From assembly GCA_964504715.1 (NCBI GenBank), contig CAZDEP010000003.1, forward strand, positions 10,111-74,110: 64,000 nt of DNA, written 5' to 3'. The position numbers and the translations under genes are program-made. Positions 2,871 to 18,519 of the stretch are shown piece by piece. The notes beneath the pieces were generated by a model that worked only from the letters and a program-made list of their open reading frames with translations, was not told the DNA's origin and made no database searches. Each line of letters starts with the position of its first letter. The first letter of the stretch is position 1. This stretch comes from an uncultured Candidatus Saccharibacteria bacterium. GTDB lineage: Bacteria > Patescibacteriota > Doudnabacteria > UBA920.

Positions 2871-5800
2871 TTATTGAACAAAATCACTGGTAATATAATG
2901 GAAGTTGTCTAGAGGCGTTTTTGTTTCAGGCAATACTCCAGCCACAACCACATCCTTTCCAAAGAAGTTAGTTAGGGTATCACCTGGCTTTTGAAATAAC
3001 TTCTCAGCTTCCATAACTTGAGCTTCTTTGCTGCCAATATAAACTGGCAAATACCGCTTTGTTCCAAACGTTACCGGAAATAACCCGTCCCGATTAATGC
3101 TGCTACTATAAACGGCAGGGATAGTATTTTGATCTATTCCATAGAATAGCTTTAACTCATCTTTTGCCTGAGCTGCTGATGCGCCAGAAACCGAAGCGAT
3201 TTGGGTTTCAGTTTTCATGATATGGGTATTATCCAAAAATGTTCCGGTCGGTTTTAAAATACCCACAATCTTCATGCTTGGTATGCCAAAGAAATTGGCC
3301 AGGGTATCGCCAGGCTTCTCAAACAGTTTTTCTTTTTTCATCATTTCCGCCTCATCGTAGCCGATGATCATTTCGTCTTTTCCTAAATTTCCAGATCCTT
3401 CTGCCAACGGCATATCAATATTCCCTTGGTTAGTTTGCAAGAAGAATTTTGGATTATTCTCGGCAAAGTTTACCCTCATGACAGACTGCTTTATCAGGTT
3501 CTGGCTCTTTTGCGTAATCTCAGGAGATGCCTTAACAACAGTCATGGCTTTGGTTGGTTCTGCCATGCGCGAGCTGAATTGGGCGAACTCAAAGAATACA
3601 AGGGAAAAGAATACGGCCATGGCCACCGGAGCCAATGCGGATATCCAGTTGCGTTTGGTCGGCTTAAAGAACCGCAAGGTCAGGGAATTTGTAACAACCG
3701 AAACAGAGCTTAAAGCCATAGCTAGCCCAGCTAGTTCTGGCTTCAAGACCAACCCCAAACCCATAAATACGCGAGCAGCAATTGGGATGCCTACGACATT
3801 GTAGAATAACGCAAAGAACATATTTTGTTTAATTTTGCTCATGGTTTCGCGGGAGAGCTGGATGGAATTGACCACATCATTCAAGTCGCTTCTCATAATT
3901 ACGATGCCGCCGGTTTCCATGGCAACGTCAGTGCCATTGCCCATGGCAATACCGAGGTTAGCCTGCGCCAGTGCTGGTGCGTCATTAATGCCATCGCCAA
4001 CCATGGCAACTTTCTTGCCATCCGCTTGCAGCTTTTTCACCTCGTTGGCTTTATCTTCCGGCAATACCTCTGCCAGCACATTGGTAATACTGACTTGGGA
4101 AGCAATGGCTTTGGCCGTGCGTTCGTTGTCGCCGGTGATCATGTATACCGTAATACCCATTTTCTGAAGCTTTTCAACTGCAGCTTTGGAAGTGGCTTTT
4201 ACAGTATCTGCCACCGCCACTACCCCAAGCAAATTCTCATTTGTGCCGAGCAACATGGCAGTCTTACCAGCTTCTTCAAGCCTTGATTGTTTTTTTCCGA
4301 CTTTCTCCGGGTTAATGCCTGCAACATCAGACATCATTTTGCGGTTACCAAAATAGTAGGTAATGCCATAAATATCGCCCTGCACTCCATGTCCGGGAAC
4401 GGCCTTGAAGTTTTTGACTTCCAGCAAATCCACATCTTCGTCCTGCGCGTGGCTATAAATAGCTTCCGCTAACGGATGCTCGGAAAGCTTTTCCAAGCTG
4501 GCAGCAATCTGCAAAACATCATCTTCGTCTTTGTCTGCAAACGCAAGAATATCAGTTACCTCCGGTTTGCCGTAAGTTAACGTTCCGGTTTTATCAAAGA
4601 TAATAGTATTGATCTTGCAAGCGGCCTCCAAAGGTTCGCCGCCTTTAACCAATATGCCATTTTCCGCACCCTTGCCAGTGCCTACCATAATAGCCGTAGG
4701 AGTAGCAAGTCCCAAAGCGCAAGGACAAGCGATGACGATAACGGCTGTAAACGCCATCAAGGCAAAAGCTAACGTTGCGCCTAGGAAGAAATACCAAACC
4801 AAGAACGTGATGACTGCAATCACAATAACCGCCGGAACAAACCAGGCGGAAATTTTGTCTGCAACGGCCTGTATGGGAGCTTTGGATCCTTGGGCTTCTT
4901 CAACTAAGCGGATAATTTGCGCCAGCACGGTTTCGCTGCCGACCTTAGTAACTTCAAACTCAAAGCTGCCGGTCTTGTTAAGGGTTCCACCTGCCACGTT
5001 ATCTCCAACCTTTTTTTCTACGGGCAAGCTTTCACCGGTCAACATAGATTCATCAACGGCGGAGGATCCTTTAATAATACGTCCGTCAATTGGAATTTTT
5101 TCTCCGGGGCGCACGATGACAATGTCTTTATGGACAACTTGATCGATAGCGATATCCTGCGTGCCGCCATTGCGAATCACTCGGGCTGTTTTTGCCTGAA
5201 GACCCATTAATTTCTTAATGGAATCTGAGGTCTTGCCTTTGGTCCTGACTTCCAACCACTTACCCAAGATTACGAAGGTAATCAGAAATGCCGCGGTTTC
5301 AAAATATAAATCTTGAATTTTTCCGCCATTTAACCCGAGTAGAGTTTTATTTGCGACAGCGAAAAACACAAAAGTCACTAAGCTGTAAAAGTAAGCGGTA
5401 GAAGTGCCAATGGCTATTAAGCTATCCATGTTAAAGGTTTTCATCCGCAAGGCTGACCACATGCCCTTATAGAATCCCTTGCCAATAATGAACTGGACAG
5501 GTGTGGCAAGGATAAGGGAAACAATGCCTACATAAGGCAAAAGCTGCGCTTTGCCCGGCATCCAGCCAAAGAAGTCAAAGAACATGAAGTAAAGCATTGG
5601 CGCGCTCAAGATTGCGCTAAACAAAAATTTCTTCCAGTATGATCCAATTTCTGCCTGCCTTTTCTTGGCGTCGAACTCCGTATCTTTTGCATCAACCTCT
5701 TCGGCCTTATAACCAACTTTCTTTACTGCCGCGACAAGGTCTGAAATTTGAGTTTGGGAGTTATCGAATACAATTACGGCTTTTTCTGCCGCAAAATTTA

Positions 5801-6482
5801 CGCTAGCTTGGGAAACGCCCGAAACTTTCTTTAAAGACTTTTCAATAATGCCAGCACAAGAAGCGCAGTGCATGCCTGAAAGAGAAAGGCTGATTTTTCT
5901 GCTCTTGCTATTGCTCTCAATTGCGGCCGGAACGGCTGTCATGGCGACTGCCTGTGCCTGAGGTGACTGAATCCGCGGCGAATTTTGTTGTTCACTGCTG
6001 ACCTGATCAAAGACATTAAAGAACTTCGCGCTTTTCACTAATTGCTCTAAAAACCCTTTGGCCTCTTCTTGTCCTTCAGGAACAGCAATGTCAGCAGTTT
6101 TGTGGCTCGTATAAGTGCCTTCAAAATATGGCTTGCCAGTTTCTGATTCCATCACTTTCCCGTGCGCTTCCAAGCGAGTGTCCAATTTTACTGAAAAAGG
6201 TATTCCTTTTGCCACCCTGGTTTTTACTTCTATACTTTCGTTGGCAACAGGTTCTGAAGCTGTTCCTCCGCTGATTTCAGCGACATACCCCGCCCGCTTA
6301 ACAGCATCTGCAATTTGTTCTGTGGTAACCAGTTCAGGGTTTGCCTTGACTGTGCCTTTGCCTTCGGCAGCAGATATCTGGATTTCTCCTACGCCTGGCA
6401 ATTCTCTAAGTTCCTCCGTTATAAGTGTTTCGCAAGAGCTGCAATGCATCCCTTGAATGTTTAAATGTAAAGTATTTTCCAT
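2871..6482 (-). CDS. copA: copper-translocating P1B-type ATPase with two N-terminal HMA domains (GMHCSSC, GMHCASC) and an unusual C-terminal extension: one extra TM helix plus a tandem duplicated ~90-aa domain
   Basis: Motifs TGES, CPC ([12 protein letters not shown]), DKTGTLT and [10 protein letters not shown]. Two MxCxxC metal-binding domains. The C-terminal repeats share AEKLF.KPGDTL.NFFG...LDN.H. Confidence 0.9.
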
Positions 6483-6502: not shown

Positions 6503-6709
6503 TTATGCTGCGTGCACTTTGTATTGAGTGCCAGCAAGCGCTTCTTGCAATTCGTTAATTGTAATTTCCCTGTCAGCCTCCACTTCTCCTTGAGCCTCAT
6601 TGCCACTTTGCTCTAACTTTACGTTCCTGACTCCGCTAATTTTACTAATCTTCATGCGCGACACTTTGCCGCATGCATCGCAATTTAAATTTGTTAATAA
6701 AAATTTCAT
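6503..6709 (-). CDS. copZ: CopZ-like heavy-metal-associated (HMA) domain metallochaperone
   Basis: 68 aa, beta-alpha-beta-beta-alpha-beta-sized, with the CxxC metal-binding motif (LNCDACGKV). It sits directly upstream of the copA-like gene. Confidence 0.7.
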   Translation of the reverse strand: MKFLLTNLNCDACGKVSRMKISKISGVRNVKLEQSGNEAQGEVEADREITINELQEALAGTQYKVHAA

Positions 6710-6723: not shown

Positions 6724-8409
6724 TTATTCTACGTTTATAATCCCGCGCTGCACTCCCATGGCGCAGGTGATGGGATATTCTCCCTTGTCCTTGGCGGTGA
6801 AGTCCAAAGCCAGTGTTTTATTTTTTTCGAGCAGCTCCGGTTGGTTATACAAGCCTGGAATCATTATGGTGCTCATACATCCATAGCCTTCGTCTTTTAC
6901 ATCAACTTCTAACCGCGCGGCTTGCCCAACTTTTACTGTGAATGTATTTGGTTCAATGTCATTATCAGTTCTATAGACTGTTTTTAATATTTGTGTGCCA
7001 GTTGCAGGTTCAGCGGTTTTTGCTTCAACTGCCGGTTGTGCTTGCTGGGGAGTTGAAGCCGGGGTAGCCTGAGACTGGACGGGGTTTGTGTCCTCAATGA
7101 CATTAAACGATCCTCTATACATTCCCATTGAACACGTAAAGCTTACGGTGCCGGTTTTAGTAGGAGTGAATTCAATAATATTTTCCCCTGATTTTAGCGG
7201 TTGGCTAATTTTATAAGCAGACATTACTATATAGCTTGAACATGAGTATTGGCTGGTAGAATTGATTATCCATTTTACCGGCCGTCCTTTGACCACAGTA
7301 AATGACTTTGGGCTGTAACCGCTGTCGCTTTGGGTCATTCTTACTTCTTGCGCTGGTCCCGTTGCCTGCGCTGTATTTGCCGTTTTCGTGCCTGGCGTGA
7401 ATACAATCCTGCTGGCGTTGGAAATATTAAATATTCCCAACACAATAACTGCTATGCCAGCGCCCATAAAGAAGATGCGGGCTTTTTGGCCTTTGAATAC
7501 ACTGGACAATCCTCCGATCCCTAAAAGTCCAGGAGCGGTGCCTAAGGCAAACAGCATCATAATTAATGCTCCTTTGGTAAGGCTCCCGGTGCTTACCGCA
7601 TACAGCTGCATGGCTTGTGTAAAACCGCATGGCAAGAAGAACGTCATGGCTCCGCCAATAAACGCAGACTTGTGGCTATACTCCTTGTTCTCATTGCGGA
7701 TGCCTAATGCGCGGGATATGAACTTTGGAAGGGTTATGGTTTTGTCCCGCAATGCCGGAAATATTTCAATGAGCTTAAGCCCCAGGAAGATCATCACCCC
7801 GCCCACAATAATAGTCATGATTCCCAAGGTGGAAGCAGAAGGTCTGAAAGCAGATCCCAACAGGCCAATTGCCCCGCCAAAGAAGGCATATCCTGCAATT
7901 CTCCCGACGTTAAAGAATATGTGCGGACGGAACTTTTGCGCTGCCGTCGCTTCTGGGTGAAGTTCGCTATGACGAGCCGCCAAACCTAATACTAATCCGC
8001 CGATTAAAGCCATACAGGACGAAAATCCGGCAACTAGCCCTACTAGAACAACCACGCCCATACTGCCGCCGCCTGTGCTGATGTTCACATTGAACAGCCC
8101 GGTAGAACTTGCGATAAAATACAGGACTGCAAGAATGGAACCGGCAAGCAGCAAGTAAAAGTAATCTCGCGGGTTGCGCGATATCCAAGGCAGTTTCTCT
8201 TTTTGCCCGATTTCATAACCCGCAGCCTGCACAGCATCCCTTATACTTTGTTTGGAAGGCGTTGGTCCTTCAAAATGGACTTTCGCTTTTCCGTCTTTAT
8301 AGCTTACATTGACTGATTTGACTCCCTTAACTTCTTTAAGGTTGTCTTCAATGAGGATTTCGCACGATCTACAGTGCATCCCTCTAATTGGAACAATAAA
8401 TTTTCCCAT
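6724..8409 (-). CDS. HMA-domain fused TauE/SafE(DsbD_2)-like polytopic membrane protein with a C-terminal tandem pair of ~55-aa C-x-M-G-M (cupredoxin-like?) domains; putative metal permease
   Basis: N-terminal GMHCRSCE HMA domain and ~8 TM helices with an LPCGFTQAMQ motif. The C-terminus has the repeats FTCSMGMYRGSFNV and ITCAMGVQRGIINV. Confidence 0.7.
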   Translation of the reverse strand: MGKFIVPIRGMHCRSCEILIEDNLKEVKGVKSVNVSYKDGKAKVHFEGPTPSKQSIRDAVQAAGYEIGQKEKLPWISRNPRDYFYLLLAGSILAVLYFIASSTGLFNVNISTGGGSMGVVVLVGLVAGFSSCMALIGGLVLGLAARHSELHPEATAAQKFRPHIFFNVGRIAGYAFFGGAIGLLGSAFRPSASTLGIMTIIVGGVMIFLGLKLIEIFPALRDKTITLPKFISRALGIRNENKEYSHKSAFIGGAMTFFLPCGFTQAMQLYAVSTGSLTKGALIMMLFALGTAPGLLGIGGLSSVFKGQKARIFFMGAGIAVIVLGIFNISNASRIVFTPGTKTANTAQATGPAQEVRMTQSDSGYSPKSFTVVKGRPVKWIINSTSQYSCSSYIVMSAYKISQPLKSGENIIEFTPTKTGTVSFTCSMGMYRGSFNVIEDTNPVQSQATPASTPQQAQPAVEAKTAEPATGTQILKTVYRTDNDIEPNTFTVKVGQAARLEVDVKDEGYGCMSTIMIPGLYNQPELLEKNKTLALDFTAKDKGEYPITCAMGVQRGIINVE

Positions 8410-8428: not shown

Positions 8429-9490
8429 TTAGACCCCGCAACCACCACCGCCCTTAGGTGCAACCGGCTCTACTTGGCTTCTAATTTGTTGGTATCCTTG
8501 GGCGCTGGAAAACGCTGCTCCCAATACTTCCTGCGGGTTGACCTGTTTCCAGTCAACTCCTTGGCTTTTTTTATACTTGGCTATTGTCAGGTAAGTATCC
8601 GGGAACCAATAAGAATTTACTGTTAGAGCATACTTATACATGTCCTGTTCGTTTACCCCTTGGGAAGCCATGAGTTCCAGCAAGCCCAGCATTGCCATCC
8701 CATGGTTGCAATCAGGGAAGTGGGTGGAATTGCCGCAGCAAGGGCGGAAGATTCCCCGCGAGACTTTATCTACAATCGCTTGCTGCTCTGCTGTTAAAGT
8801 TATAAAGCGATGTTTTGAATAGTGCTCCATGGCAGTTCCGCTGGCCAATGTCCATCCTCCCGTTGAGGCGAACTTTCCGGCATCGCCGCCGTATTGCTTA
8901 TCCCACATTTCGCCTTTATCCAGGATCTCATTTTTCTGTCCTAGTCCGAATGCCCAGAGAATATTTAACAGGCCGGAAGAATTTTGAGCGGTAAATTTGA
9001 TTTTCCCATTATTGCTTTCTGTCAGCATCTTTTTCATATCCGCTGGCATTCCGCCTCTTTGGGCATATAAGGCCTCTATTTTTTGCTGGTCAATTACTCC
9101 TTCTTTGACCAATTGCTTGCCTAAGTCTCCCCATACAACCGGCAATTCAAGGCCAGCGCTAGGTAAAACTTTTTCTTCCATATCTTTATCGATCGGAGCG
9201 GCGGCTGGCGCAGTTGAAGTTTGGGCTAAGGTCTGGGTGGTAACCGCCGTCTGTTGCGCCGGTTTGACACCCAATACTTTATTAAGCCAAGGTTTGCGTT
9301 TTACCGTAACCTGAAACTCAAAGGTAGAGGTTATGATAAGGATCGCGATTGCGGCCATTCCGGCCATTTCCAGATAGGAAAAGTCTTCCATGCGGGCATA
9401 TGTTTTTTTCAGAAACATTTTTATCCCGCTTTTTTCATGATGGTGTTCAGTAATTTTTTGCTCTTCACCGGGAACATGATGGTTTTCCAT
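8429..9490 (-). CDS. membrane-anchored hypothetical protein with a His-rich N-terminus (HHVPGEEQKITEHHHE) and a Cys/His cluster CCGNSTHFPDCNHGM; putative metal-binding exoprotein
   Basis: 353 aa, a single TM segment after the His-rich tail, and a conserved-looking Cys/His cluster. No family recognised. Confidence 0.55.
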   Translation of the reverse strand: MENHHVPGEEQKITEHHHEKSGIKMFLKKTYARMEDFSYLEMAGMAAIAILIITSTFEFQVTVKRKPWLNKVLGVKPAQQTAVTTQTLAQTSTAPAAAPIDKDMEEKVLPSAGLELPVVWGDLGKQLVKEGVIDQQKIEALYAQRGGMPADMKKMLTESNNGKIKFTAQNSSGLLNILWAFGLGQKNEILDKGEMWDKQYGGDAGKFASTGGWTLASGTAMEHYSKHRFITLTAEQQAIVDKVSRGIFRPCCGNSTHFPDCNHGMAMLGLLELMASQGVNEQDMYKYALTVNSYWFPDTYLTIAKYKKSQGVDWKQVNPQEVLGAAFSSAQGYQQIRSQVEPVAPKGGGGCGV

Positions 9491-10049: not shown

Positions 10050-10838
10050 TTACATTTTAAGGATTAATAGTCCCAAGAGGATCATAATGATCCCGCCAAT
10101 CCATCGCATTGCATTCAGGTGGTTTCGTTTCCAGTCTTGCATCTTAGTAAGCACGGTTTGTTCGCTTGCTACAAACAATACAGCCACCAATGGAGCTACG
10201 AATAAAATGTTATACCATATTAGATATCCCATTCCTCGGAATTTTGTCTGGGCATCGTGGAGAAGCCCTAGCACCATCAAGTATGGTCCGCCGGTGCAGG
10301 GAAACTCGCATAATCCCACAAGCGCGCCAAGCAGGAACACAGCGGGAATGGAAGTCTTTTCCATCAGGTCGGCAATTTTACCATGGACAGCATGAGGAAT
10401 TTGAAGCTTTACCGGAAACTTAGGAAAGAACTGGTTGATAATATTTAGAATGCCCATGCCAATAAGCAGATAGGCTCCCAGCACGCCCATAAAGTGGGGA
10501 GTGTTAAATAAGTGCAAAGCTCCTAAAATGCCAAGGCCAATAGCCAGATAGGCTATAAAGATTCCAAATATGTAAGCCCCGCCAATTTCTAACATTTTTC
10601 TCCTGCTAAAGGTTCCTAAGCTAAATAAGAAAGCTATAGTAAGCAGCAGTATGGAGAAAGCACAGGGGTTTATGCTGTCGATTAACGCCGCGAGGGAAAC
10701 CAATGGAAACAGTTTTGTGCCTCCACCGGATATGTTCCAGATTACTTGAGTGGCGGAAGAACTGGATTTGAGGAACAAGAGAATGCCGAAAGCCAATGCA
10801 ACCCCGCCTAACACAAAGAAAAATCTTTTATAGTTCAT
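10050..10838 (-). CDS. ccdA: CcdA/DsbD-family thiol:disulfide interchange membrane protein (cytochrome c biogenesis CcdA-like)
   Basis: Polytopic protein with conserved Cys-containing motifs (INPCAFSILL and LCEFPCTGGPYL), typical of CcdA/DsbD TM domains. Confidence 0.8.
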   Translation of the reverse strand: MNYKRFFFVLGGVALAFGILLFLKSSSSATQVIWNISGGGTKLFPLVSLAALIDSINPCAFSILLLTIAFLFSLGTFSRRKMLEIGGAYIFGIFIAYLAIGLGILGALHLFNTPHFMGVLGAYLLIGMGILNIINQFFPKFPVKLQIPHAVHGKIADLMEKTSIPAVFLLGALVGLCEFPCTGGPYLMVLGLLHDAQTKFRGMGYLIWYNILFVAPLVAVLFVASEQTVLTKMQDWKRNHLNAMRWIGGIIMILLGLLILKM

Positions 10839-10842
10839 AGGG

Positions 10843-11382
10843 TTATGGAGTTACCTGGGCTTTAAAGGCCAGGTTTAATTTGCCGCCGTCCGTGGTTTCA
10901 ACATAGATATCGCGGGCAATGGATCCGACGCCGGCCGGACCATGGGCTGCCGGGTCATATACAGCTTCTATGGTCGCCTCGACTCCGGGCGCTAGCGTTT
11001 CGGTGATAGTAGGGATTGCGCCATGCCCGGGCATGCCGAATGGCCCCGCTCTGCGATCGCCATTGTAGAGTGTGGCTTTAGTGCACATGCACGAAGTATA
11101 TATTTTGCTGATTGTAATCGTGTCAGAGGTTGGGTTTTTTATTTTGAAGCTTTTCTTAACCACACCTTTGGCCATTGAAATGGTTCCGAAGTCGTAAGCT
11201 TTTTCTAAAGCCTCAATAGGACTGGCTTTAGAAGATCCGGTCTGCGTTGAGGCAGCGGGAGAGGAAGAAGAGCTGGTAGAAAATACAAGCGAGCCTCCAA
11301 GCACTACAAAGAATAAGGCGATGCCAGCCACAACCCAATTCGCTTTCTTCTGAGTTTCTTTTATTTGATAACGATGTGACAT
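10843..11382 (-). CDS. DUF1573-domain protein, membrane anchored
   Basis: N-terminal TM segment, then YDFGTI....FxIKNxG...L.I..I.TSCMCT, characteristic of DUF1573 (often found with thioredoxin/CcdA systems). Confidence 0.65.
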   Translation of the reverse strand: MSHRYQIKETQKKANWVVAGIALFFVVLGGSLVFSTSSSSSPAASTQTGSSKASPIEALEKAYDFGTISMAKGVVKKSFKIKNPTSDTITISKIYTSCMCTKATLYNGDRRAGPFGMPGHGAIPTITETLAPGVEATIEAVYDPAAHGPAGVGSIARDIYVETTDGGKLNLAFKAQVTP

Positions 11383-11476
11383 AGTTTTTAATAAGCATTA
11401 ATAGAGACACTGTCTATATTAGTTCCTCAGCTCGCTTGTCTTTGTAAACAAAGACAGACTCGCTTACGTCACTAAT

Positions 11477-11508
11477 AAAAAACACCTTTGCAATCTGGTG
11501 CAAAGGGT
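11477..11508 (-). terminator. rho-independent terminator (hairpin cctttgc/gcaaagg followed by a U-tract on the minus strand)
   Basis: 7-8 bp GC-containing stem and a 7-nt loop. An A6 run on the plus strand gives U6 on the minus strand. It lies in the 184-bp gap after the 11567-12016 gene. Confidence 0.5.
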
Positions 11509-11566
11509 CTTGTATTAGCTTATGCTAAAACTATATCAAAAGTTTTAGTAAAAGTTAAAGACCGCC

Positions 11567-12016
11567 TTACACCAAAGCAAAGGCGTAGGAAGGATCTTTC
11601 TTTTGGGTAACGGCAATCCAAAATCCTAGTTGATTTTGGAAAACCCCTACAGTTTCTTCAAATAGTTGTCTAAGCCGAACTTTAATACGGCTGTAATAAA
11701 GGTTAGTTGAATCCAACAGCCCGAAAGCAACAAAAGCCAATAGAACAAAAAGCATTAAGCCTAGTATGCTCGCTCCAATGTTATTTGGAATAGCATTCGC
11801 CAAATTTTGCATAACGCCCAAATGGTAATTTAAACAAACACCGCTGTCTTTAGGTTGGGAGCAGTCGCCTCCATTTACCGAAACAGGGCAGTTTTCTGCT
11901 GCCATCATGGTATTGTGATTCATGGTTGCCATGCTAATAATCCCAATGCTCAAAACGCCCAAAGTAAGGACTGCGAGAACTGTGCGAGTTATAGGATTAT
12001 TGCCTAAGTAGTTCAT
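11567..12016 (-). CDS. hypothetical membrane protein with a Cys-rich extracytoplasmic segment (CPVSVNGGDCSQPKDSGVC)
   Basis: Two TM segments flank a Cys-containing loop. Confidence 0.5.
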   Translation of the reverse strand: MNYLGNNPITRTVLAVLTLGVLSIGIISMATMNHNTMMAAENCPVSVNGGDCSQPKDSGVCLNYHLGVMQNLANAIPNNIGASILGLMLFVLLAFVAFGLLDSTNLYYSRIKVRLRQLFEETVGVFQNQLGFWIAVTQKKDPSYAFALV

Positions 12017-12037
12017 ACTTTTTCTATTATATCATAT

Positions 12038-12475
12038 TTACAACTTATAGTCAATATCTGTATTTTTGCTTGATTTTACTAGGAGAATAGACACTATGCC
12101 GGTAACCATAAGTTGGATCAGGGGATATATCCCAATTTTTGTCCCTAGCAGTAGAGGCATTGAATCAGTATATGCCCACAGATTATTGGATAATGCACCC
12201 CGCTCCACTAAAAAGGCAATTGCCAGCTCAAACAGTAAAAATATAAATAGTTTTACTAATGTAGGATGTCTAAACCAGTTTACCTTCTTAATAGACATAT
12301 CTACCAGCCAATAACTAATCGAGATTGCAGCCGCATCGCCCAGCGCACCGAGAAAGCAAAATGGTAAATGATTCCAGAACCCGCCATAACCTTGATAAAG
12401 GGGAGCTTGTATATTCTCCCATACCACGTTCAATAAAAAACTTATACCTATTATAGCAGTAAAAATCTTTTTCAT
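12038..12475 (-). CDS. hypothetical polytopic membrane protein
   Basis: The ORF-track start (12514) overlaps the upstream ATPase gene. The internal Met (MKKIFTAIIG...) at 12475 is a more plausible start. Confidence 0.5.
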   Translation of the reverse strand: MKKIFTAIIGISFLLNVVWENIQAPLYQGYGGFWNHLPFCFLGALGDAAAISISYWLVDMSIKKVNWFRHPTLVKLFIFLLFELAIAFLVERGALSNNLWAYTDSMPLLLGTKIGIYPLIQLMVTGIVSILLVKSSKNTDIDYKL

Positions 12476-12479
12476 GAAA

Positions 12480-14663
12480 TTATGATAGGCTCTTGCGTCT
12501 AAGCATAACGGCATTTAATGCAACAATAACTGTGCTAAGCGACATAAATACTGCCGCTAAAGCAGGTTGCATTAATATTCCTTTTGAAGCCAGAACCCCA
12601 GCCGCCAGCGGCAATGCAACAACATTGTATCCAGTCGCCCAAAACAGGTTTTGAATCATCTTGGAGTAAGTCAGTTTTGAAAGTTTTATGACTTTAGGAA
12701 TATCGCGCGGGTCATTTTTGACTAAAATAATTCCAGCCGACTCAATTGCTACATTTGTTCCAGCACCAATGGCAATACCTAAGTCTGCCTGCGTCAGAGC
12801 CGGTGCGTCATTAATCCCGTCGCCGACCATGGCAACTTTTAAACCTTTGTCTTGCAATAATTTAACCTTACTAGCTTTTTGCTCAGGCAAAACCTTGGCA
12901 AAATATTCATCAATCTTCAGTTCTCCCGCAACCCAGGCAGCTACATCTTGAGAATCACCAGTAATCATCCCAACTCGGACACCCATGGCTTTTAACGACT
13001 TTATGGCTTCTCTTGATTCCTCACGAATAACATCTGCCAAGGCGATACTGCCAACCAGTTTTTTATCTACAATGACAAAGATAATAGTTTTACCTTGTTT
13101 TTCCGCTCGGCTGTTTTGTTCGACCAGCTGGCTATCCATCCCTGCCCCTGATTCTTGCAGAAGCGTGGCGCTACCAACAAAAACTTCTTTGCCGTCTACT
13201 ATTGCTTTTGTTCCTTTGCCTGGAATCCGCTGAAAGTCCAAAGCGGGACTAAACTGCAATTTCCTTTTTTCGACTTCCTGCATAATAGCTTTGGCAACCG
13301 GATGTTCGGAGTTAGCGTTGACTGAAGCGGCTAACTTAAGCACAAGTTCGGGACTGTTACCGGAAGAACCTATGAGCTTATCAATTCCATATTCGCCTTT
13401 AGTCAAGGTGCCGGTTTTATCAAATAATACAACATCAATATTCCTGGCGGCTTCTAAAGCTAAACGCTGCTTAACCAGCAGGCCATTCTTTGCCGCCATG
13501 TTTGTGGAAATAGAAGCGACCAAAGGAATGGCCAAACCTAAAGCGTGCGGACAGGCGACCACTAAAACCGCCACTGTTCTTTCCAGAGCAAAGTTAACCC
13601 CGGAACTATTTAATATCCAAATAATAAAAGTTAATATTCCGGACACCAGAGCGATTATGGTTAGATAAAAAGCGGCGCGATCTGAAAGCATTTGTAGCTT
13701 GGATTTGGAGCTTTGCGCTTCCGCGACTAATCGCATAACGCCGGAAAGAAAGGTTTTTTCTCCGATCTTGTCTACTTTTATCTTCAAACTACCATCACCG
13801 TTAATCGTACCGGCAATGGCTTCACTCCCAATGTCTTTACTAACCGGTTTAGACTCGCCGGAAACCATAGACTCGTTAACCTCCGATCTTCCTTCAGCAA
13901 TAGTCCCATCGGCTGGAATTTTTCCGCCCGGTTTAACTAAAATAACATCACCTTCTTTTAACTGCTCCAGCGGGATGATTTCGGTTTTGTTACCCCTTAC
14001 AACTTCCGCCGTGTCGGGTAAAAGCTTGGCCAGTTCCTTAAGCGCGCCTTGGGCGCCCTGGACGGCACGCATTTCCATCCAATGACCCAAAAGCATAATG
14101 GTAATTAGCGTGGTTAATTCCCAAAACAGGGTTTCGCCATTTAACAGTAATTTGGAATACAGACTATACACGTAAGCGACCGTAATCGCCATGCCAATCA
14201 AGGTCATCATACCCGGCTGTTTGGCTTTTAGTTCCCTGTAAGCTCCTTGCAAAAATACCCAACCGCCGTGAAAGAAGACAACTGAACCCAAAATTAAAGG
14301 AATATAACCTGACCCGGGGAAAACCGGAGCTGTAAACCCCAGCAGTTGGGTTACCATTTCAGAATACAAAACCACAAGCACGCTTAAAACAAGGCTCACC
14401 CAAAACTTATTTTTAAACACATTAACATTATGGCCTTCGTGCTTATTTACTCCTTCGTTGTGACCATTGTGTCCCATATGTTCTTCTGTTTCTGGGCCTT
14501 TTCTTTTTTCAGGCAATAATTGCATGCCGCAGCCCGGGCATTTGCCTGGCTGATTTTGCCGCACTTGCGGGTGCATTGGACAGGTATAAACAATATCCGA
14601 CTTCGGTTCTTCGATGTGATGCGTATGATTATGATGTTGGTGATTATTGTTATGCATAGTCAT
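12480..14663 (-). CDS. copB: CopB-type (P1B-3-like) copper P-type ATPase with a His-rich N-terminus and an N-terminal CPMHP-type heavy-metal-binding domain
   Basis: N-terminus HNNNHQHHNHTHH, then YTCPMHPQV...GKCPGCGM. Core motifs TGES-like, CPH (VVACPHALGLAIP), DKTGTLT and [10 protein letters not shown]. Confidence 0.85.
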   Translation of the reverse strand: MTMHNNNHQHHNHTHHIEEPKSDIVYTCPMHPQVRQNQPGKCPGCGMQLLPEKRKGPETEEHMGHNGHNEGVNKHEGHNVNVFKNKFWVSLVLSVLVVLYSEMVTQLLGFTAPVFPGSGYIPLILGSVVFFHGGWVFLQGAYRELKAKQPGMMTLIGMAITVAYVYSLYSKLLLNGETLFWELTTLITIMLLGHWMEMRAVQGAQGALKELAKLLPDTAEVVRGNKTEIIPLEQLKEGDVILVKPGGKIPADGTIAEGRSEVNESMVSGESKPVSKDIGSEAIAGTINGDGSLKIKVDKIGEKTFLSGVMRLVAEAQSSKSKLQMLSDRAAFYLTIIALVSGILTFIIWILNSSGVNFALERTVAVLVVACPHALGLAIPLVASISTNMAAKNGLLVKQRLALEAARNIDVVLFDKTGTLTKGEYGIDKLIGSSGNSPELVLKLAASVNANSEHPVAKAIMQEVEKRKLQFSPALDFQRIPGKGTKAIVDGKEVFVGSATLLQESGAGMDSQLVEQNSRAEKQGKTIIFVIVDKKLVGSIALADVIREESREAIKSLKAMGVRVGMITGDSQDVAAWVAGELKIDEYFAKVLPEQKASKVKLLQDKGLKVAMVGDGINDAPALTQADLGIAIGAGTNVAIESAGIILVKNDPRDIPKVIKLSKLTYSKMIQNLFWATGYNVVALPLAAGVLASKGILMQPALAAVFMSLSTVIVALNAVMLRRKSLS

Positions 14664-14669
14664 AAAGTT

Positions 14670-15446
14670 TTAATATCCTTTAAATTCTTCAGTTATAATA
14701 TTATTTTTACTAATACTTAATCCATTGAGTAATTTTCTCATAGCCGTTACCATGACTGGGGGTCCTGCCAAATAATAAATCAGGGTCTGAAAGTTGTCTA
14801 AATATCTCTCCAACATTGTTCGATCTATGTATCCGGTTTCTCCTTGCCATGTTTCCTTTGATTCGTGGAGTTCAGTCATGGTTGGAATTAATTTGAAATT
14901 TGGATTCTGCTTCGCCAGCTCTTCCAATTCTTTCAAAAAAGGAGCATCCTCCGGCTGCTTGTTGGAGTAGAAGAGAAACAGCTGATGGGGCAATTTTCTT
15001 TCTGCAACATCTTTAATTATTGAAAATACCGGGGTGATTCCTATGCCGCCAATCAGGAAAACTGCTGGTTTTGATTCATCATTATGCAGAGTAAATGACC
15101 CATGGATGTGTTCAACTATAACCTTACTTTCCGGGTTCATGCTCCCTAAAACTCTCTTAAACGCGGTATTTCGCATCCGTGTGGCAAAGAGCAGTTCTTT
15201 TTCCGCGGGTGAATTTGCCAGTGAAAAATGGCGGCTACTGCCTTCGTCGTCGGTTTCGGGTGGATTAATAAGCTTCATATTTAAATGCTGGCCTGCTCTA
15301 AAAGAAAATCCTTGCGGCTTTTCAAAAAAGAAAGCCATGGTGCCCTCCGCGACCTGTTTTTTTCCCTTTAGCGCCACTTCAAACACTCCGCCGCTGGCTT
15401 CGGGGTGGTGGTGTGTTTGATTATGATGGTGATGATCGTGATTCAT
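14670..15446 (-). CDS. ferredoxin-NADP+ reductase-like FAD/NAD(P)-binding oxidoreductase with a His-rich N-terminal tail
   Basis: The RHFS (RxYS-type FAD-binding) and GGIGITP (NAD(P)-binding) motifs of the FNR superfamily. N-terminus MNHDHHHHNQTHHH. Its stop lies 6 nt from the copB-like start. Confidence 0.75.
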   Translation of the reverse strand: MNHDHHHHNQTHHHPEASGGVFEVALKGKKQVAEGTMAFFFEKPQGFSFRAGQHLNMKLINPPETDDEGSSRHFSLANSPAEKELLFATRMRNTAFKRVLGSMNPESKVIVEHIHGSFTLHNDESKPAVFLIGGIGITPVFSIIKDVAERKLPHQLFLFYSNKQPEDAPFLKELEELAKQNPNFKLIPTMTELHESKETWQGETGYIDRTMLERYLDNFQTLIYYLAGPPVMVTAMRKLLNGLSISKNNIITEEFKGY

Positions 15447-15449
15447 AAA

Positions 15450-16142
15450 TTATGCAAATAAATATTTATAAAATAATTGAGATTGGTCTACTACGACCTG
15501 CAAAAAAGGATATTCATTGTCCAAATTACTTTCTGCTTTAGGAAGAATGAGAAAACCTTGCACCGTAATTTCTTCGTCTGAAGTCGGCACTACTTGAAAT
15601 TCGCCTAAGTCTTTAATATTTGAGGACTGATTTCTTGTTGACAGCAATTCGCGGTTGCCGACCCGCTGGGTTAACAGCACATAGTCGCCATTGGTATATA
15701 AAAATTCTTTGACAGTGCGCTGGGTGTCAATTTCCACAAACCGCAATAGCCCCCATTTGGCCTTGGCAATAGACACAATAGCAGAAGCCAATAGGTTATT
15801 GAATATTGTTTTCTTATGTTGCTTGGTATATTTTGAACTGGCCAACAACTCGCTGCTTAAGCGCTTGAACAATGGCAATCTGGTATTTACTGAACCAATA
15901 TACTTAAATGAATCCAATAATTTCCCCTGTGAAATCCGTAAATCTTCCTGCAATTTTTTACTCTTTTTAACCTCTTGTTGATGCAAATAATATATTGCAA
16001 CGCCCGCCCCAACAATAAATATTGTTACAAGGGATTCCGCATAAGCTTCGGGCAGTATCCCAATATGGTCGGGGACCAAGTGTGGGTGAATGACTAAACC
16101 GACAAACAGCAAGAAGTATATAATTTTTATAAATTTAGACAT
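15450..16142 (-). CDS. hypothetical membrane protein (two N-terminal TM segments plus a cytoplasmic domain)
   Basis: ORF in the operon. No motif recognised. Confidence 0.45.
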   Translation of the reverse strand: MSKFIKIIYFLLFVGLVIHPHLVPDHIGILPEAYAESLVTIFIVGAGVAIYYLHQQEVKKSKKLQEDLRISQGKLLDSFKYIGSVNTRLPLFKRLSSELLASSKYTKQHKKTIFNNLLASAIVSIAKAKWGLLRFVEIDTQRTVKEFLYTNGDYVLLTQRVGNRELLSTRNQSSNIKDLGEFQVVPTSDEEITVQGFLILPKAESNLDNEYPFLQVVVDQSQLFYKYLFA

Positions 16143-16144
16143 AT

Positions 16145-16801
16145 TTAGTGCATTCGTAAATTATTTTGAGGCTTCACTTCAATTTGGTAAGCGCCTTCGG
16201 GTTCTCTATAACTAATAAGCAAACCCGAGGCAACTGCCAAAAATATCATCCACAAATACGCTGCCAATTTCATTTTGCTTTTACCCAATACTTCCACCAT
16301 TCTGAAGATTCCTGCCAAAATCAAGGAGGCGCCCAAATATCTATGAATAATCACTGCATTCATTACAGCCTCCGAAGTGCCATGTTGTTGGTGAGCCAAA
16401 AATAAAAGTCCAATGATTAATAAACCTGCCGGGAAGGCAACTTTTGCCCACAATTTATCTGTTTTTATACTATAAAATTCCAATGCTGCCGCAACCGTTA
16501 CAATAATGGCTATATACAAATGCTGGCGCTGCTGCGCGTCATAAATAGTAGCTTTAAAGGCTAGCTCCATTTCATTCCAATGATGTGAAAACGAAAAAAT
16601 GGGTAAAAATAATCCGGCCGCAAGTATTAAGCTTGGCCAGACATACTTCAGCCAGCTTGCCCGGTAAATTCCTGTTGCCTGGACGAAAGCAATAATAACC
16701 ACCGCGGAAAAAAGCCCGCCCTCAATCCAGTGTGCCAAGTTAGAAAGATAAATCAATTCTTCCAGTGTATGTAATTGTAGAATAAGCGGTAAATTTTCCA
16801 T
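16145..16801 (-). CDS. polytopic membrane protein with conserved His residues (possibly CopD-like)
   Basis: ~6 TM helices with the motifs SHHWNEM and HQQHG. It is adjacent to a small secreted HH-containing protein (a CopC/CopD-like arrangement). The assignment is speculative. Confidence 0.45.
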   Translation of the reverse strand: MENLPLILQLHTLEELIYLSNLAHWIEGGLFSAVVIIAFVQATGIYRASWLKYVWPSLILAAGLFLPIFSFSHHWNEMELAFKATIYDAQQRQHLYIAIIVTVAAALEFYSIKTDKLWAKVAFPAGLLIIGLLFLAHQQHGTSEAVMNAVIIHRYLGASLILAGIFRMVEVLGKSKMKLAAYLWMIFLAVASGLLISYREPEGAYQIEVKPQNNLRMH

Positions 16802-16802
16802 A

Positions 16803-17273
16803 TTATTTAAGTTGCCAGATAAAGCTTCTTATTGCCACATCGCCCACTTTCAAAATCCTTATTTCAATTTCCTTTGGCAAAGACGTGATCGTATTAAAAA
16901 TCAAATTGCCCTCAATATGATGCCCGCCGGGACCCGGGCCTTCCCAGTTTACCGCCTTATATTCTTTGCCTTGTTCATCAAACAATGAAACGGCTTTGGT
17001 TAAATCGTAGTCTAATTCTACGGTGTGGGTGTCCAAAACAATATTAAATTTCCATAGCTTTGAGTTTTGTGATACATCAAGCGGAGTAACATCAACCTTA
17101 ACTGGGCCCTCCTCATTAGTTTTGGCTTCTAAACCTGTTTGGGATCCCAAACTTGTGATGGGATTTTGAATGCTATCCGGATTGCTGGCGGTTTTATTCC
17201 TAGATAATAAAAATAAGACGGCCAAAACGGCAATAAAAAATACTACGATAATTAAAATTTTGTTATTTTTCAT
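16803..17273 (-). CDS. membrane-anchored extracytoplasmic beta-rich protein (possibly a CopC/YcnI-like copper-binding protein)
   Basis: N-terminal TM anchor, then WEGPGPGGHHIEGNL. It overlaps the upstream gene by 4 nt (ATGA). Confidence 0.45.
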   Translation of the reverse strand: MKNNKILIIVVFFIAVLAVLFLLSRNKTASNPDSIQNPITSLGSQTGLEAKTNEEGPVKVDVTPLDVSQNSKLWKFNIVLDTHTVELDYDLTKAVSLFDEQGKEYKAVNWEGPGPGGHHIEGNLIFNTITSLPKEIEIRILKVGDVAIRSFIWQLK

Positions 17274-17716
17274 ACCTGTTGCCTAAATTTAATTATCTGT
17301 CTGCCAACATAAATTATTCCAAAAAGGTTAAAGGCCAATCCTGCCCAGAAAAATTGCACCTGGTATTGCGCCACTACTGCCAGAAAACCCGCAATGCCTA
17401 AAATGGGAACGATGTTAACCAAGTAATGAGCGCAGCAAGAAATCATGGTCAAAGTGGAAGTGGTGCCGGTAACGGCCACCGCTTGTTTAGCGTGCGTCAT
17501 GTTGTGGTTTTGAATGGCGTTTTTTAAATAAACATACATGCCGATTTGCAAGCCAAACCCTACAGCTAAGCTCACCAAAAAATACCAGTATTTTATAAAC
17601 TGCTCTTTGGCAAAACTTGGTTCGGTAATCAAACCAACCGCGATGAAATAAACTGCGACCAACAAAACTGTTGCCATGACCCCCCAAAATATAGGCTTTT
17701 TCAAATTGCTCATCAT
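17270..17716 (-). CDS. hypothetical 4-TM membrane protein with a CC motif (ISCCAHY)
   Basis: Hydrophobic ORF, translationally coupled to the next gene. Confidence 0.5.
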   Translation of the reverse strand: MMSNLKKPIFWGVMATVLLVAVYFIAVGLITEPSFAKEQFIKYWYFLVSLAVGFGLQIGMYVYLKNAIQNHNMTHAKQAVAVTGTTSTLTMISCCAHYLVNIVPILGIAGFLAVVAQYQVQFFWAGLAFNLFGIIYVGRQIIKFRQQV

Positions 17717-17722
17717 ATGGAA

Positions 17723-17968
17723 TTAATGATTATGGTCATGGGGTGCGTCTTCAACCGGTTTTGACTCTGATTCATCATCTTCCTTTTTACCATGTCGCAT
17801 GCCAAAAAGATGGAAAACCACCATAAGCCCGACAGCGCCTAATATAGCCCACTTAAACCAGGAACTGTCTCCACCCCGGCCGGCAAACACCAAAAGCAAA
17901 ATCGGCAAAGCGCACCCAATCATCATCCACCACATCATATTGGAATTGTTGTCATTGTGATTGTGCAT
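17723..17968 (-). CDS. DUF2933-like small membrane protein with His-rich termini
   Basis: 81 aa, MHNHNDNNSNMMWWMMIGCALPILLL...HDHNH. This small-protein type commonly flanks heavy-metal ATPases. Confidence 0.5.
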   Translation of the reverse strand: MHNHNDNNSNMMWWMMIGCALPILLLVFAGRGGDSSWFKWAILGAVGLMVVFHLFGMRHGKKEDDESESKPVEDAPHDHNH

Positions 17969-17980
17969 AAATTTAGATGA

Positions 17981-18250
17981 TTAATTTTTACCTACTAAAC
18001 TGGAATTGTGCATCCAGACCATGTAAGCCCCAAAGACCCAAGCTATAATGGCAATTAAAATTGCTCCCCAGATAAAGCTGCCAAAGCTTATCCACGTAAA
18101 ACCGGGCAGGGTTTCAAATAACTGATGATGCAATTCTACTGCTCTTTGGCTGCGAAAAGGCAGGAATCCGCCAACCAGGCAAAGCACGTAAGCTATCTCT
18201 GCTCCCAATACGCACTTCTTTACATAAGATTTAAAAGACAGTTTTTCCAT
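17981..18250 (-). CDS. small membrane protein (89 aa)
   Basis: Two hydrophobic helices in the same operon. Confidence 0.45.
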   Translation of the reverse strand: MEKLSFKSYVKKCVLGAEIAYVLCLVGGFLPFRSQRAVELHHQLFETLPGFTWISFGSFIWGAILIAIIAWVFGAYMVWMHNSSLVGKN

Positions 18251-18268
18251 ATATTTGCAGTTAGTTGA

Positions 18269-18505: not shown

Positions 18506-18519
18506 AAATAATCACCCCC

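What the first reader, a model, noticed from the sequence alone, without database searches (positions are those of the whole stretch)
6724..7230. HMA-permease fusion ending in two C-x-M-G-M beta-sandwich repeats
The 561-aa protein combines an N-terminal MxCxxC HMA domain, a TauE/SafE(DsbD_2)-like 8-TM core, and a C-terminal pair of ~55-aa repeats (..FTCSMGMYRGSFNV / ..ITCAMGVQRGIINV). The Cys-Met-Gly-Met spacing with conserved Gly/Phe looks like a thioether-rich Cu(I) site on a cupredoxin-like fold without the usual His. This may be a novel metal-delivery architecture: cytoplasmic HMA, channel, then extracytoplasmic Cu(I) sites.
Basis: partly seen in the sequence, partly recalled or inferred. 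Interest (0 to 1): 0.55.

Follow-up and report, generated by a model that had tools for sequence, protein, structure and literature searches.

The report
Membrane copper relay with CupA-like domains
The two C-terminal repeats are copies of a known copper(I)-binding domain (CupA of Streptococcus pneumoniae), here predicted to sit outside the cell on a membrane permease that is the usual, unstudied partner of the copper pump CopA in Patescibacteria.

Summary
ORF 6724..8409 (-) encodes 561 aa: an HMA domain, one extra TM helix, a 6-TM DsbD_2 core and two cupredoxin domains of about 88 aa each.

The Cys/Met site is not a new kind of site. Domain 1 has all four ligands. Domain 2 has V/I in place of the second Met.

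These residues are conserved in 77-79 of 80 species-level homologues. The family occurs in at least 590 GTDB species, mostly Patescibacteria; a sister lineage is in Clostridia and an uncultured archaeon. A Cu-type P1B ATPase lies directly downstream in 75/80 loci, often with copZ-like and csoR genes.

Charge bias and the AlphaFold model give HMA inside, 7 TM helices and cupredoxins outside, the opposite side from CupA. The protein has exactly four Cys pairs.

Best reading: a Cu(I) thiol relay across the membrane. The main rival is a DsbD-like electron conduit. I found no paper on this architecture.

The parts
6724..8409 (-). Whole gene: 561-aa HMA / TM0 / DsbD_2 core / 2 x CupA-like cupredoxin protein (stop codon 6724-6726)
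8212..8394 (-). N-terminal HMA domain, residues 6-66, motif G-M-H-C-R-S-C (C13, C16); predicted cytoplasmic
   Evidence: Pfam 51 bits. M11/H12/C13/C16 are conserved in 76-78 of 80 species homologues. Profile hits to CopZ, ATP7B and MerP structures.
8104..8172 (-). Extra transmembrane helix TM0 (residues 80-102) that takes the chain from the cytoplasm to the outside
   Evidence: Helix 80-102 in the AF2 model. K+R per loop is 3.0 before it and 0.1 after it.
7399..8064 (-). Six-TM DsbD_2 core (residues 116-337). TM1 and TM4 are broken helices.
   Evidence: Pfam DsbD_2 E 1.5e-32. AF2 helices 118-129/131-149, 156-184, 192-213, 246-258/262-274, 277-304, 307-337. Half-versus-half hhalign aligns C132 with C261, E 0.012, weak.
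8014..8016 (-). Codon of invariant intramembrane Cys132 (TM1 break, S-S-C-M; M133 follows)
   Evidence: 80/80 species homologues. Also invariant in the Clostridia/archaeal lineage, where the motif is H-C-x-x-M-C-G-G.
7627..7629 (-). Codon of invariant intramembrane Cys261 (TM4 break, L-P-C-G-F-T-Q-A-M-Q)
   Evidence: 80/80. P-C-G-x-x-Q-x-M-Q is shared by both lineages.
7096..7356 (-). Cupredoxin domain 1 (residues 352-438), CupA-like, predicted extracytoplasmic
   Evidence: phmmer against 4F2F gives 2e-8 and against CupA 4.6e-7. The profile gives 5.8e-14. Foldseek against 4F2E: TM 0.90, rmsd 1.5 A over 98 columns.
7240..7242 (-).
   Evidence: Alignment; 79/80 conserved.
7120..7134 (-). C426-S-M428-G-M430, aligned with CupA C111-x-M113-x-M115
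   Evidence: conserved 78/78/77 of 80; CxMxM in 146/149 representatives clustered at 50% identity.
6997..7095 (-). Low-complexity Pro/Gln/Ala/Thr linker (residues 439-471), pLDDT < 50
   Evidence: Many homologues carry a Cys/Gly-rich linker here instead.
6727..6996 (-). Cupredoxin domain 2 (residues 472-561), a diverged CupA-like copy
   Evidence: Internal repeat E 8e-11. AF2 beta domain 473-560, pLDDT 83-96. Present in 40/80 species homologues.
6877..6879 (-). Codon of Cys511, the domain-2 equivalent of C390 (followed by M512)
   Evidence: 40/40 where domain 2 exists; M512 in 37/40.
6751..6765 (-). C549-A-M551-G-V553: bis-thiolate pair kept, second Met replaced
   Evidence: C549 39/40, M551 38/39; position 553 is V in 26, I in 9, M in 2, A in 2.
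6503..6709 (-). Partner gene: 68-aa CopZ-like protein (N-L-N-C-D-A-C), 14 nt downstream
   Evidence: Weak HMA hit, 5.9e-4. The same small gene sits between the family gene and the ATPase in 37/80 loci.
2871..6482 (-). Partner gene: CopA-type P1B ATPase (2 HMA domains, CPC motif, 1203 aa)
   Evidence: Pfam. A P1B ATPase lies directly downstream on the same strand in 75/80 related loci.

Best explanation
The gene encodes a three-compartment Cu(I) relay that belongs to the copper-resistance (cop) operon of Patescibacteria.

Proposed path:
1. A cytoplasmic HMA domain (C13-x-x-C16) binds Cu(I), alone or from the small CopZ-like protein encoded next door.
2. The metal passes by ligand exchange to an intramembrane Cys/Met site. 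This site is formed at the breaks of TM1 (C132-M133) and TM4 (P-C261...M267) of a CcdA-like 3+3 TM core.
3. The metal is handed to one or two extracytoplasmic CupA-type cupredoxin domains. In domain 1, C390 + C426 would form the high-affinity bis-thiolate S1 site, and C390 + M428 + M430 the S2 site. Domain 2 keeps the Cys pair and one Met.
4. Outward transfer, in parallel with CopA, is the most likely direction. Outside, copper would be held, released or oxidised.

Shown here: the domain identities, homology to CupA in sequence and fold, conservation of the ligands, and gene linkage to CopA, a CopZ-like gene and csoR.
Predicted: the topology.
Inferred: Cu(I) binding by these particular domains, passage through the membrane core, and the direction.
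For: Domains: Pfam HMA, DsbD_2 and Cupredoxin_1 x2.

CupA homology: phmmer against 4F2F gives 2e-8 and against CupA 4.6e-7, with C390/C426/M428/M430 aligned to CupA C74/C111/M113/M115. The profile gives 5.8e-14. Foldseek against 4F2E gives TM 0.90 and rmsd 1.5 A; against 4F2F, TM 0.86 and rmsd 1.3 A. The CupA S1/S2 ligand assignment is taken from PMC5646241 and PMC7558416.

Conservation: C390 79/80, C426 78/80, M428 78/80, M430 77/80; C132 and C261 80/80; M206, M267, M284, H163, Q265 and Q268 in at least 76/80. CxMxM is present in 146/149 representatives clustered at 50% identity.

Intramembrane ligands: the sister lineage has an even more metal-like TM1 motif, H-C-x-x-M-C-G-G, with the same P-C-G-x-x-Q-x-M-Q in TM4.

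Cysteines: the protein has exactly 8 Cys, forming 4 pairs, one pair per module.

Topology: K+R per loop alternates 3.0 / 0.1 / 3.2 / 0.5 / 6.4 / 0 / 2.4 across 120 homologues. AF2 gives 7 TM helices. Stand-alone tandem homologues with signal-peptide or lipobox N-termini show that the module is used outside cells.

Gene context: a Cu-type P1B ATPase lies directly downstream in 75/80 loci, a CopZ-like gene lies between them in 37/80, and csoR (PF02583) lies directly upstream in 28/80. In the window the gaps between the genes are 14-20 nt.

Superfamily: most LysE-superfamily families are secondary metal or amino-acid exporters (PMC4608589).
Against: - No experiment exists on any member of this family.
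- The TM core belongs to the clan of CcdA/DsbD, which carry electrons and not metals. The four Cys pairs fit a thiol-disulfide cascade equally well.
- The direction of transfer cannot be read from sequence.
- A second Cu(I) exporter beside an ATP-driven CopA has no obvious energetic reason.
- I could not inspect model coordinates, so the C132-C261 distance and the docking of the domains are unknown.
- The TM-core model found no solved structural neighbour.
- Topology rests on prediction only.
- CupA itself works on the cytoplasmic side.
Confidence: 0.5

Rival explanations
1. DsbD/ScsB-like electron conduit. The TM Cys pair (C132/C261) carries reducing equivalents outward. This keeps the external CupA-like Cys pairs reduced in an oxidising environment, or lets them reduce Cu(II) to Cu(I). 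The external domains then trap copper, for example copper expelled by CopA. No metal crosses the core.
For: - The core is Pfam DsbD_2, and relatives also hit DsbD_TM/CcdA.
- The two invariant Cys sit at the breaks of TM1 and TM4, in equivalent positions of the 3+3 repeat.
- Four Cys pairs in series resemble the DsbD cascade.
- CupA reduces Cu(II) in vitro through C74/C111, and its reductant is unknown (PMC5646241).
- The DsbD family is linked to copper and mercury resistance (PMC4608589).
- DsbA-like and CcdA-like genes recur nearby (17 and 11 of 80 loci).
Against: - An HMA domain is a metal binder, not a known thioredoxin substitute, and DsbD-type cores need no fused cytoplasmic donor.
- Invariant intramembrane Met, His and Gln (M133, M206, M267, M284, H163; H-C-x-x-M-C in the sister lineage) are what metal coordination would need. 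Thiol-disulfide exchange would not need them.
- Separate CcdA-like genes in the same islands suggest that the reductant role is already filled.
Confidence: 0.22
2. Inward relay of the MerP-MerT-NmerA type. The external CupA-like domains capture Cu(I), Ag(I) or Hg(II) at the cell surface. They pass it through the TM Cys pair to the cytoplasmic HMA. From there it goes to CopZ/CopA for controlled disposal, or serves copper nutrition.
For: - The best NCBIfam hits of the HMA domain are MerTP and MerP-like models, all well below their cutoffs.
- Relay from one thiol pair to the next across a membrane is how the Mer system works (my own knowledge).
- One LysE-superfamily family catalyses metal uptake (PMC4608589).
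Against: - The gene is linked to csoR and to a Cu-exporting ATPase, which points to detoxification. Import followed by export would be a futile cycle.
- No merA or merR was identified among the window genes or the recurrent neighbour families that I annotated.
Confidence: 0.12
3. All soluble domains are cytoplasmic because the TM count is even. The protein would then be a membrane-tethered CupA-plus-CopZ chaperone that feeds CopA, as CupA does in S. pneumoniae. The membrane part would be only an anchor.
For: - CupA and the CopA metal-binding domain act in the cytoplasm (PMC7558416).
- Cytoplasm-facing TM-anchored CupA-like proteins occur in some related loci.
Against: - Seven helices appear in two AF2 models.
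- Loop charges alternate strongly over 120 homologues.
- A mere anchor would not keep about 20 invariant intramembrane residues.
- The neighbouring CopA has HMA domains, not a matching cupredoxin domain.
Confidence: 0.08

Closest known systems
[quoted passage not shown]
   Same: - Homologous in sequence (E 5.8e-14 with the profile).
- Same fold (TM 0.90, rmsd 1.5 A).
[quoted passage not shown]
- Encoded in a cop operon with a Cu(I) P1B ATPase.
   Different: - CupA is a 1-TM-anchored, cytoplasm-facing single domain that feeds a CopA carrying a matching cupredoxin domain.
- Here the domain is C-terminal to a 7-TM permease, predicted to be outside the cell, often duplicated, and paired with a CopA that has HMA domains.
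- Domain 2 has V/I in place of the second Met.
DsbD / CcdA / ScsB transmembrane thiol-disulfide electron carriers (TC 5.A.1, LysE superfamily)
   Same: - Same Pfam clan.
- 3+3 TM core with one essential-looking Cys in TM1 and one in TM4.
- An extracytoplasmic beta-sandwich domain bearing a Cys pair is fused to the core.
- The family is linked to copper tolerance (ScsB is from my own knowledge; PMC4608589).
   Different: - The fused domains are metal binders (HMA, CupA-like), not thioredoxin-like.
- Extra invariant intramembrane Met, His and Gln are present.
- Pfam assigns DsbD_2, not DsbD_TM.
- No structural match to a solved CcdA was obtained.
MerP - MerT - NmerA mercury relay
   Same: A soft metal is passed from one Cys pair to the next across the membrane, with an HMA domain at one end (my own knowledge).
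   Different: - The HMA is on the cytoplasmic side here.
- The outer module is a cupredoxin, not an HMA.
- The membrane core is not homologous to MerT.
- The gene context is copper (CsoR/CopA), not mer.
CopZ - CopA - CusF/CopC type Cu(I) hand-off chains
   Same: A cytoplasmic HMA donor, a membrane step, and an extracytoplasmic Met/Cys Cu(I) acceptor.
   Different: Here all three steps are in one polypeptide, and the membrane step is a small LysE-superfamily core, not an ATPase or an RND pump.
Type-1 blue copper proteins (plastocyanin, nitrosocyanin)
   Same: Cupredoxin beta-sandwich; the C-terminal loop Cys lies in the ligand loop. Sequence matches are weak: E 0.086 to nitrosocyanin and 0.26 to plastocyanin.
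   Different: Both His ligands are absent, since there is no His after residue 246. The site is a Cys2/Met2 binuclear Cu(I) site, not a redox Cu(II)/Cu(I) centre.

Membership tests
CupA-like Cu(I)-binding cupredoxin (CupA / CopA metal-binding domain subfamily of Pfam Cupredoxin_1) | Sequence homology to CupA / CopA metal-binding domain and a Cupredoxin_1 match above threshold | tested here: met
   Pfam 64.1 bits against a cutoff of 27. phmmer 2e-8 and 4.6e-7. Profile 5.8e-14 and 5.8e-12.
CupA-like Cu(I)-binding cupredoxin (CupA / CopA metal-binding domain subfamily of Pfam Cupredoxin_1) | Eight-stranded cupredoxin beta-barrel of about 100 aa | tested here: met
   AF2 domain pLDDT about 80-93. 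Foldseek against 4F2E: TM 0.90, rmsd 1.5 A. Against 4F2F: TM 0.86, rmsd 1.3 A.
CupA-like Cu(I)-binding cupredoxin (CupA / CopA metal-binding domain subfamily of Pfam Cupredoxin_1) | [quoted passage not shown] | tested here: met
   Domain 1: C390, C426, M428 and M430 align with the CupA ligands and are conserved in 77-79 of 80 homologues. Domain 2 meets it only in part: C511, C549, M551, then V553.
CupA-like Cu(I)-binding cupredoxin (CupA / CopA metal-binding domain subfamily of Pfam Cupredoxin_1) | Binds a binuclear Cu(I) cluster (S1 bis-thiolate site, S2 Met-rich site) | not testable with these tools
   Needs metal titration, XAS or crystallography.
CupA chaperone proper (the protein, not just the domain) | Single N-terminal TM anchor, cytoplasm-facing domain, and a partner CopA with a matching cupredoxin metal-binding domain | tested here: not met
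   The domain follows 7 TM helices and is predicted to be outside. The adjacent CopA has two HMA domains.
DsbD_2 (PF13386), LysE superfamily | Match to the family HMM above the gathering score | tested here: met
   113.6 bits against 24.9, covering 197 of 199 profile positions.
DsbD/CcdA-type transmembrane electron carrier | 3+3 TM repeat with one conserved Cys in TM1 and one in TM4 | tested here: met
   C132 and C261 are invariant. Both lie at helix breaks. The two halves align with the Cys in register, but only weakly, E 0.012.
DsbD/CcdA-type transmembrane electron carrier | Structural similarity to a solved CcdA/DsbD membrane domain | tested here: inconclusive
DsbD/CcdA-type transmembrane electron carrier | Thioredoxin-dependent transfer of reducing equivalents to an extracytoplasmic thiol-disulfide partner | not testable with these tools
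   Needs in vivo redox-state assays.
HMA (PF00403) metallochaperone-like domain | [quoted passage not shown] | tested here: met
   51 bits against 24.8. AF2 secondary structure E2-9, H14-25, E30-36, E41-46, H53-62. The motif is conserved in 76-78 of 80.
TauE/SafE sulfite/sulfoacetate exporter (the name attached to homologues in databases) | Match to the TauE Pfam model | tested here: not met
   No TauE family appears among Pfam hits at E <= 0.1, and there is no TM-domain hit in NCBIfam. The name comes only from automatic annotation.
Type-1 blue copper protein | His2-Cys-Met copper ligand set | tested here: not met
   No His anywhere in residues 247-561.

The most novel reading that the evidence does not exclude
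[quoted passage not shown] It would move Cu(I) across the membrane along four successive Cys pairs (HMA, TM1/TM4, cupredoxin 1, cupredoxin 2). It would be the standard companion of CopA in Patescibacteria, and also present in Clostridia and Archaea. The CupA-type binuclear site would then be a widespread extracellular Cu(I) acceptor, not a streptococcal curiosity.
Probability: 0.4. Interest if true: 0.7.

Novelty: new variant of a known kind. Interest (0 to 1): 0.5.

Why it matters
Reviews describe CupA-type copper sites as confined to a few streptococci and as acting in the cytoplasm (PMC7558416). Here the same site is conserved in thousands of proteins from Patescibacteria, Clostridia and Archaea. 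It is predicted to face the outside and is fused to a CcdA-like membrane core with invariant intramembrane Cys and Met residues. The gene sits next to copA in 75 of 80 species examined.

If the relay model holds, it adds a new transporter class to bacterial copper homeostasis. It would also assign a function to a very common gene now labelled 'sulfite exporter TauE/SafE family protein' in genome-reduced, uncultured bacteria. If the electron-conduit model holds instead, it would identify the missing reductant route for CupA-type cupric reduction. Both models can be tested with standard heterologous assays.

Tried and rejected
1. TauE/SafE membership: no Pfam or NCBIfam support. Rejected as a label.
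2. Classical blue-copper (electron-transfer) site: rejected, because there are no His ligands and the matches to plastocyanin and nitrosocyanin are marginal.
4. My first count of CopA adjacency gave only 16/80. It required one long HSP starting after residue 250, so it undercounted. All-against-all clustering of neighbour ORFs gave 75/80, and I use that number.
5. Literature searches found no paper on this architecture. The terms tried were DsbD_2 + cupredoxin, PF13386, PF13473, Patescibacteria + cupredoxin, and TauE/copper/CopZ/cupredoxin. Fu et al. 2016 (PMC4720546) is not held.
6. Source organism: the exact-protein look-up returned only unnamed metagenome contigs. The assignment to Patescibacteria rests on the nearest homologues.
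7. I could not read model coordinates, so Cys-Cys distances and domain docking were not measured.
Full report
**What is there**

The minus-strand ORF 6724..8409 encodes a 561-aa protein. Pfam assigns three domains:
- HMA, residues 6-66, 51 bits.
- DsbD_2, residues 120-326, 113.6 bits, E 1.5e-32.
- Cupredoxin_1, two stretches, E 1.4e-17.

The two C-terminal segments are true repeats of each other (BLASTP 28% identity over 81 aa, E 8e-11).

Four details need correcting:
- The repeats are whole cupredoxin domains of about 88 aa (352-438 and 472-561), not 55 aa.
- There are 7 TM helices, not 8.
- No TauE/SafE model matches. That name is only the automatic label of homologues.

**What the repeats are**

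A sequence search of the PDB with the C-terminal 220 aa hits two proteins:
- The metal-binding domain of the S. pneumoniae Cu(I) ATPase CopA (4F2F, E 2e-8).
- The copper chaperone CupA (2MRY/4F2E, E 4.6e-7).

A profile of 111 homologues raises these to 5.8e-12 and 5.8e-14.

The AlphaFold model of the full protein has mean pLDDT 81.8 and pTM 0.65. Its first beta domain superposes on CupA with TM 0.90 and rmsd 1.5 A over 98 columns, and on the CopA metal-binding domain with TM 0.86 and rmsd 1.3 A. The other top Foldseek hits are two-domain nitrite reductases and laccases, with TM below 0.3 and rmsd of 15 A or more.

In the alignments, C390, C426, M428 and M430 fall on CupA C74, C111, M113 and M115. 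In CupA:
- C74 + C111 form the high-affinity bis-thiolate S1 Cu(I) site.
- C74 + M113 + M115 form the S2 site.
- Together they hold a binuclear cluster bridged by C74 (PMC5646241, PMC7558416; motif also quoted in PMC5552934).

Its upstream bridging Cys was overlooked. Domain 2 keeps the Cys pair (C511, C549) and M551, but has V553 in place of the second Met.

**Conservation and spread**

The word-indexed search scored a capped set of candidates and found 5,120 proteins at E <= 1e-5. All of the best 120 carry the two core domains, and all but three also carry HMA.

Nearly all are from Patescibacteria (CPR): Magasanik-, Levy-, Roizman-, Gottesman-, Falkow-, Moranbacteria, Saccharibacteria, Gracilibacteria, WWE3 and Berkelbacteria.

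In the 80 loci kept (about 40-63% identity), conservation is as follows:

| Residue(s) | Conserved |
|---|---|
| C390 | 79/80 |
| C426 | 78/80 |
| M428 | 78/80 |
| M430 | 77/80 |
| HMA motif (M11, H12, C13, C16) | 76-78/80 |
| C132, C261 | 80/80 |
| M206, M267, M284, H163, Q265, Q268 | at least 76/80 |

Half of the proteins have one cupredoxin domain (about 437-528 aa) and half have two (about 570-634 aa). Where domain 2 exists, C511 is present in 40/40, C549 in 39/40 and M551 in 38/39. Position 553 is V or I in 35 of 39.

A profile of domain 1 searched against 1.84 billion cluster representatives finds 4,576 clusters at E <= 1e-3. Among the best 149, 146 have C-x-M-x-M.

A second lineage, with the motif C-W-M-G-M, has the same HMA + DsbD_2 + 2 x cupredoxin architecture. 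It occurs in an uncultured archaeon and in Thermotaleaceae (Clostridia).

**Topology**

Over 120 homologues, the mean number of K+R in successive loops is 3.0, 0.1, 3.2, 0.5, 6.4, 0 and 2.4. That is a clean positive-inside pattern. It puts the HMA domain and the charged loops in the cytoplasm and the C-terminal domains outside.

Both AlphaFold models give TM0 (residues 80-102) plus six helices. TM1 and TM4 are each broken just before their Cys: 118-129/131-149 and 246-258/262-274. A half-against-half profile alignment puts C132 opposite C261, but it is weak (E 0.012).

Some tandem homologues have signal-peptide or lipobox N-termini (for example P0151, P0169, P0229, P0240), so this module is used outside cells elsewhere. 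This is the opposite side of the membrane from CupA and the CopA metal-binding domain (PMC7558416).

**Gene context**

In the window the gene lies in a tight same-strand row, with gaps of 14-20 nt:
- A 353-aa unknown protein (8429..9490).
- This gene.
- A 68-aa CopZ-like protein (6503..6709).
- A 1203-aa CopA (2871..6482).

In the 80 related loci:

| Neighbour | Loci |
|---|---|
| P1B ATPase with HMA and CPC motifs, directly downstream | 75 |
| CopZ-like gene between the two | 37 |
| CsoR-family repressor (PF02583), directly upstream | 28 |
| DsbA-like | 17 |
| DUF1573 | 15 |
| The 353-aa family | 12 |
| CcdA-like (CC motif) | 11 |

The window itself is a metal island. It holds two more P1B ATPases, a multicopper oxidase, a CsoR-like gene and a DsbA-like gene.

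**How it most likely works**

The protein has exactly eight Cys, in four pairs, one pair per module: 13/16, 132/261, 390/426 and 511/549.

The best-supported reading is a Cu(I) relay by ligand exchange:
1. Cytoplasmic HMA.
2. An intramembrane Cys/Met site at the TM1/TM4 breaks.
3. External CupA-type sites.

It would work alongside CopA in copper detoxification.

The membrane ligands argue for metal and not only electrons. M133, M206, M267, M284 and H163 are near-invariant, and the sister lineage has H-C-x-x-M-C-G-G in TM1 with the same P-C-G-x-x-Q-x-M-Q in TM4. An outward direction is favoured for two reasons:
- The linkage to csoR and copA.
- Most LysE-superfamily families are exporters (PMC4608589).

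Direction, metal passage and Cu(I) binding by these domains are all inferences.

**Rivals**

- **DsbD/ScsB-like electron conduit (main rival).** The core belongs to the clan of CcdA/DsbD. The Cys pairs could form a thiol-disulfide cascade that keeps the external sites reduced or reduces Cu(II). CupA does reduce Cu(II) in vitro, with an unknown reductant (PMC5646241).
- **Mer-like inward relay.** Less likely.
- **All-cytoplasmic tethered chaperone.** Less likely.

**Novelty**

I found no paper describing this architecture. Reviews state that CupA occurs in only a few streptococci (PMC7558416).

The domains are known kinds. The combination, the predicted outside location and its status as the default CopA partner in Patescibacteria appear to be undescribed. 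I rate it a new variant of a known kind, of moderate interest, and directly testable.

Noticed in passing
window 2871-6482 (-), last ~270 codons (about 2871-3690): This CopA is 1203 aa, whereas its Patescibacteria neighbours are about 800 aa. After an extra C-terminal TM helix it carries an extension of about 240 aa with an internal repeat (..[16 protein letters not shown].. / ..[16 protein letters not shown].., 54% identity over 48 aa, E 2e-14). The extension has no Pfam match. By helix count it would lie outside the cell.
   Followed up: partly
window 8429-9490 (-): A 353-aa protein directly upstream has no Pfam or NCBIfam hit. It has an N-terminal TM helix, the motif F-R-P-C-C-G-N-S-T-H-F-P-D-C-N-H-G-M-A and a C-terminal G-G-G-G-C-G-V. 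The same family lies near the HMA-DsbD_2-cupredoxin gene in 12 of 80 related loci.
   Followed up: partly
homologues of window 6997-7095 (linker), alignment A1: Many homologues have a Cys/Gly-rich linker (consensus C-G-x-x-G-G-G-C-x-G-C-G-G-G) between the two cupredoxin domains. The window protein has a Pro/Gln/Ala/Thr linker instead. A similar G-G-G-C-G motif ends the 353-aa neighbour.
   Followed up: no
L014 2036-4450; L044 8454-8813; L043 8440-8799; L051 8345-8704; L007 9305-9691; L059 8342-8701: Patescibacteria also encode stand-alone TM-anchored CupA-like proteins (119-128 aa, C...C-G-M-N/G-M), with the charge pattern of a cytoplasm-facing domain. One CopA (804 aa) has an N-terminal TM helix plus a cupredoxin domain (C-D-M-S-M). 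The streptococcal CupA/CopA pairing therefore exists outside the Lactobacillales.
   Followed up: partly
proteins P0151, P0169, P0229, P0240: Stand-alone proteins with two CupA-like domains (C-W-M-G-M type) and signal-peptide or lipobox-like N-termini. They are probably secreted or lipid-anchored copper binders. P0169 gets no Pfam hit at all.
   Followed up: no
window 10050-25000: The surroundings form a metal and thiol-redox island:
- weak CcdA/DsbD_TM-like gene, 10050-10838
- DUF1573, 10843-11382
- second P1B ATPase with an HMBD domain, 12480-14663
- SHOCT-domain-like protein (sequence similarity to a Pfam-confirmed homologue; not itself scanned), 18269-18505
- CsoR-like repressor, 18520-18798
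- third P1B ATPase, 18863-20734
- multicopper-oxidase-like protein with a Met-rich stretch, 20751-22361 (read from the sequence; not scanned against Pfam)
- DsbA-like protein, 23898-24719
.
   Followed up: partly
protein P0217: A histidine-phosphatase (His_Phos_1) domain fused to a C-terminal CupA-like cupredoxin with C-S-M-G-M. This is an unexpected pairing.
   Followed up: no
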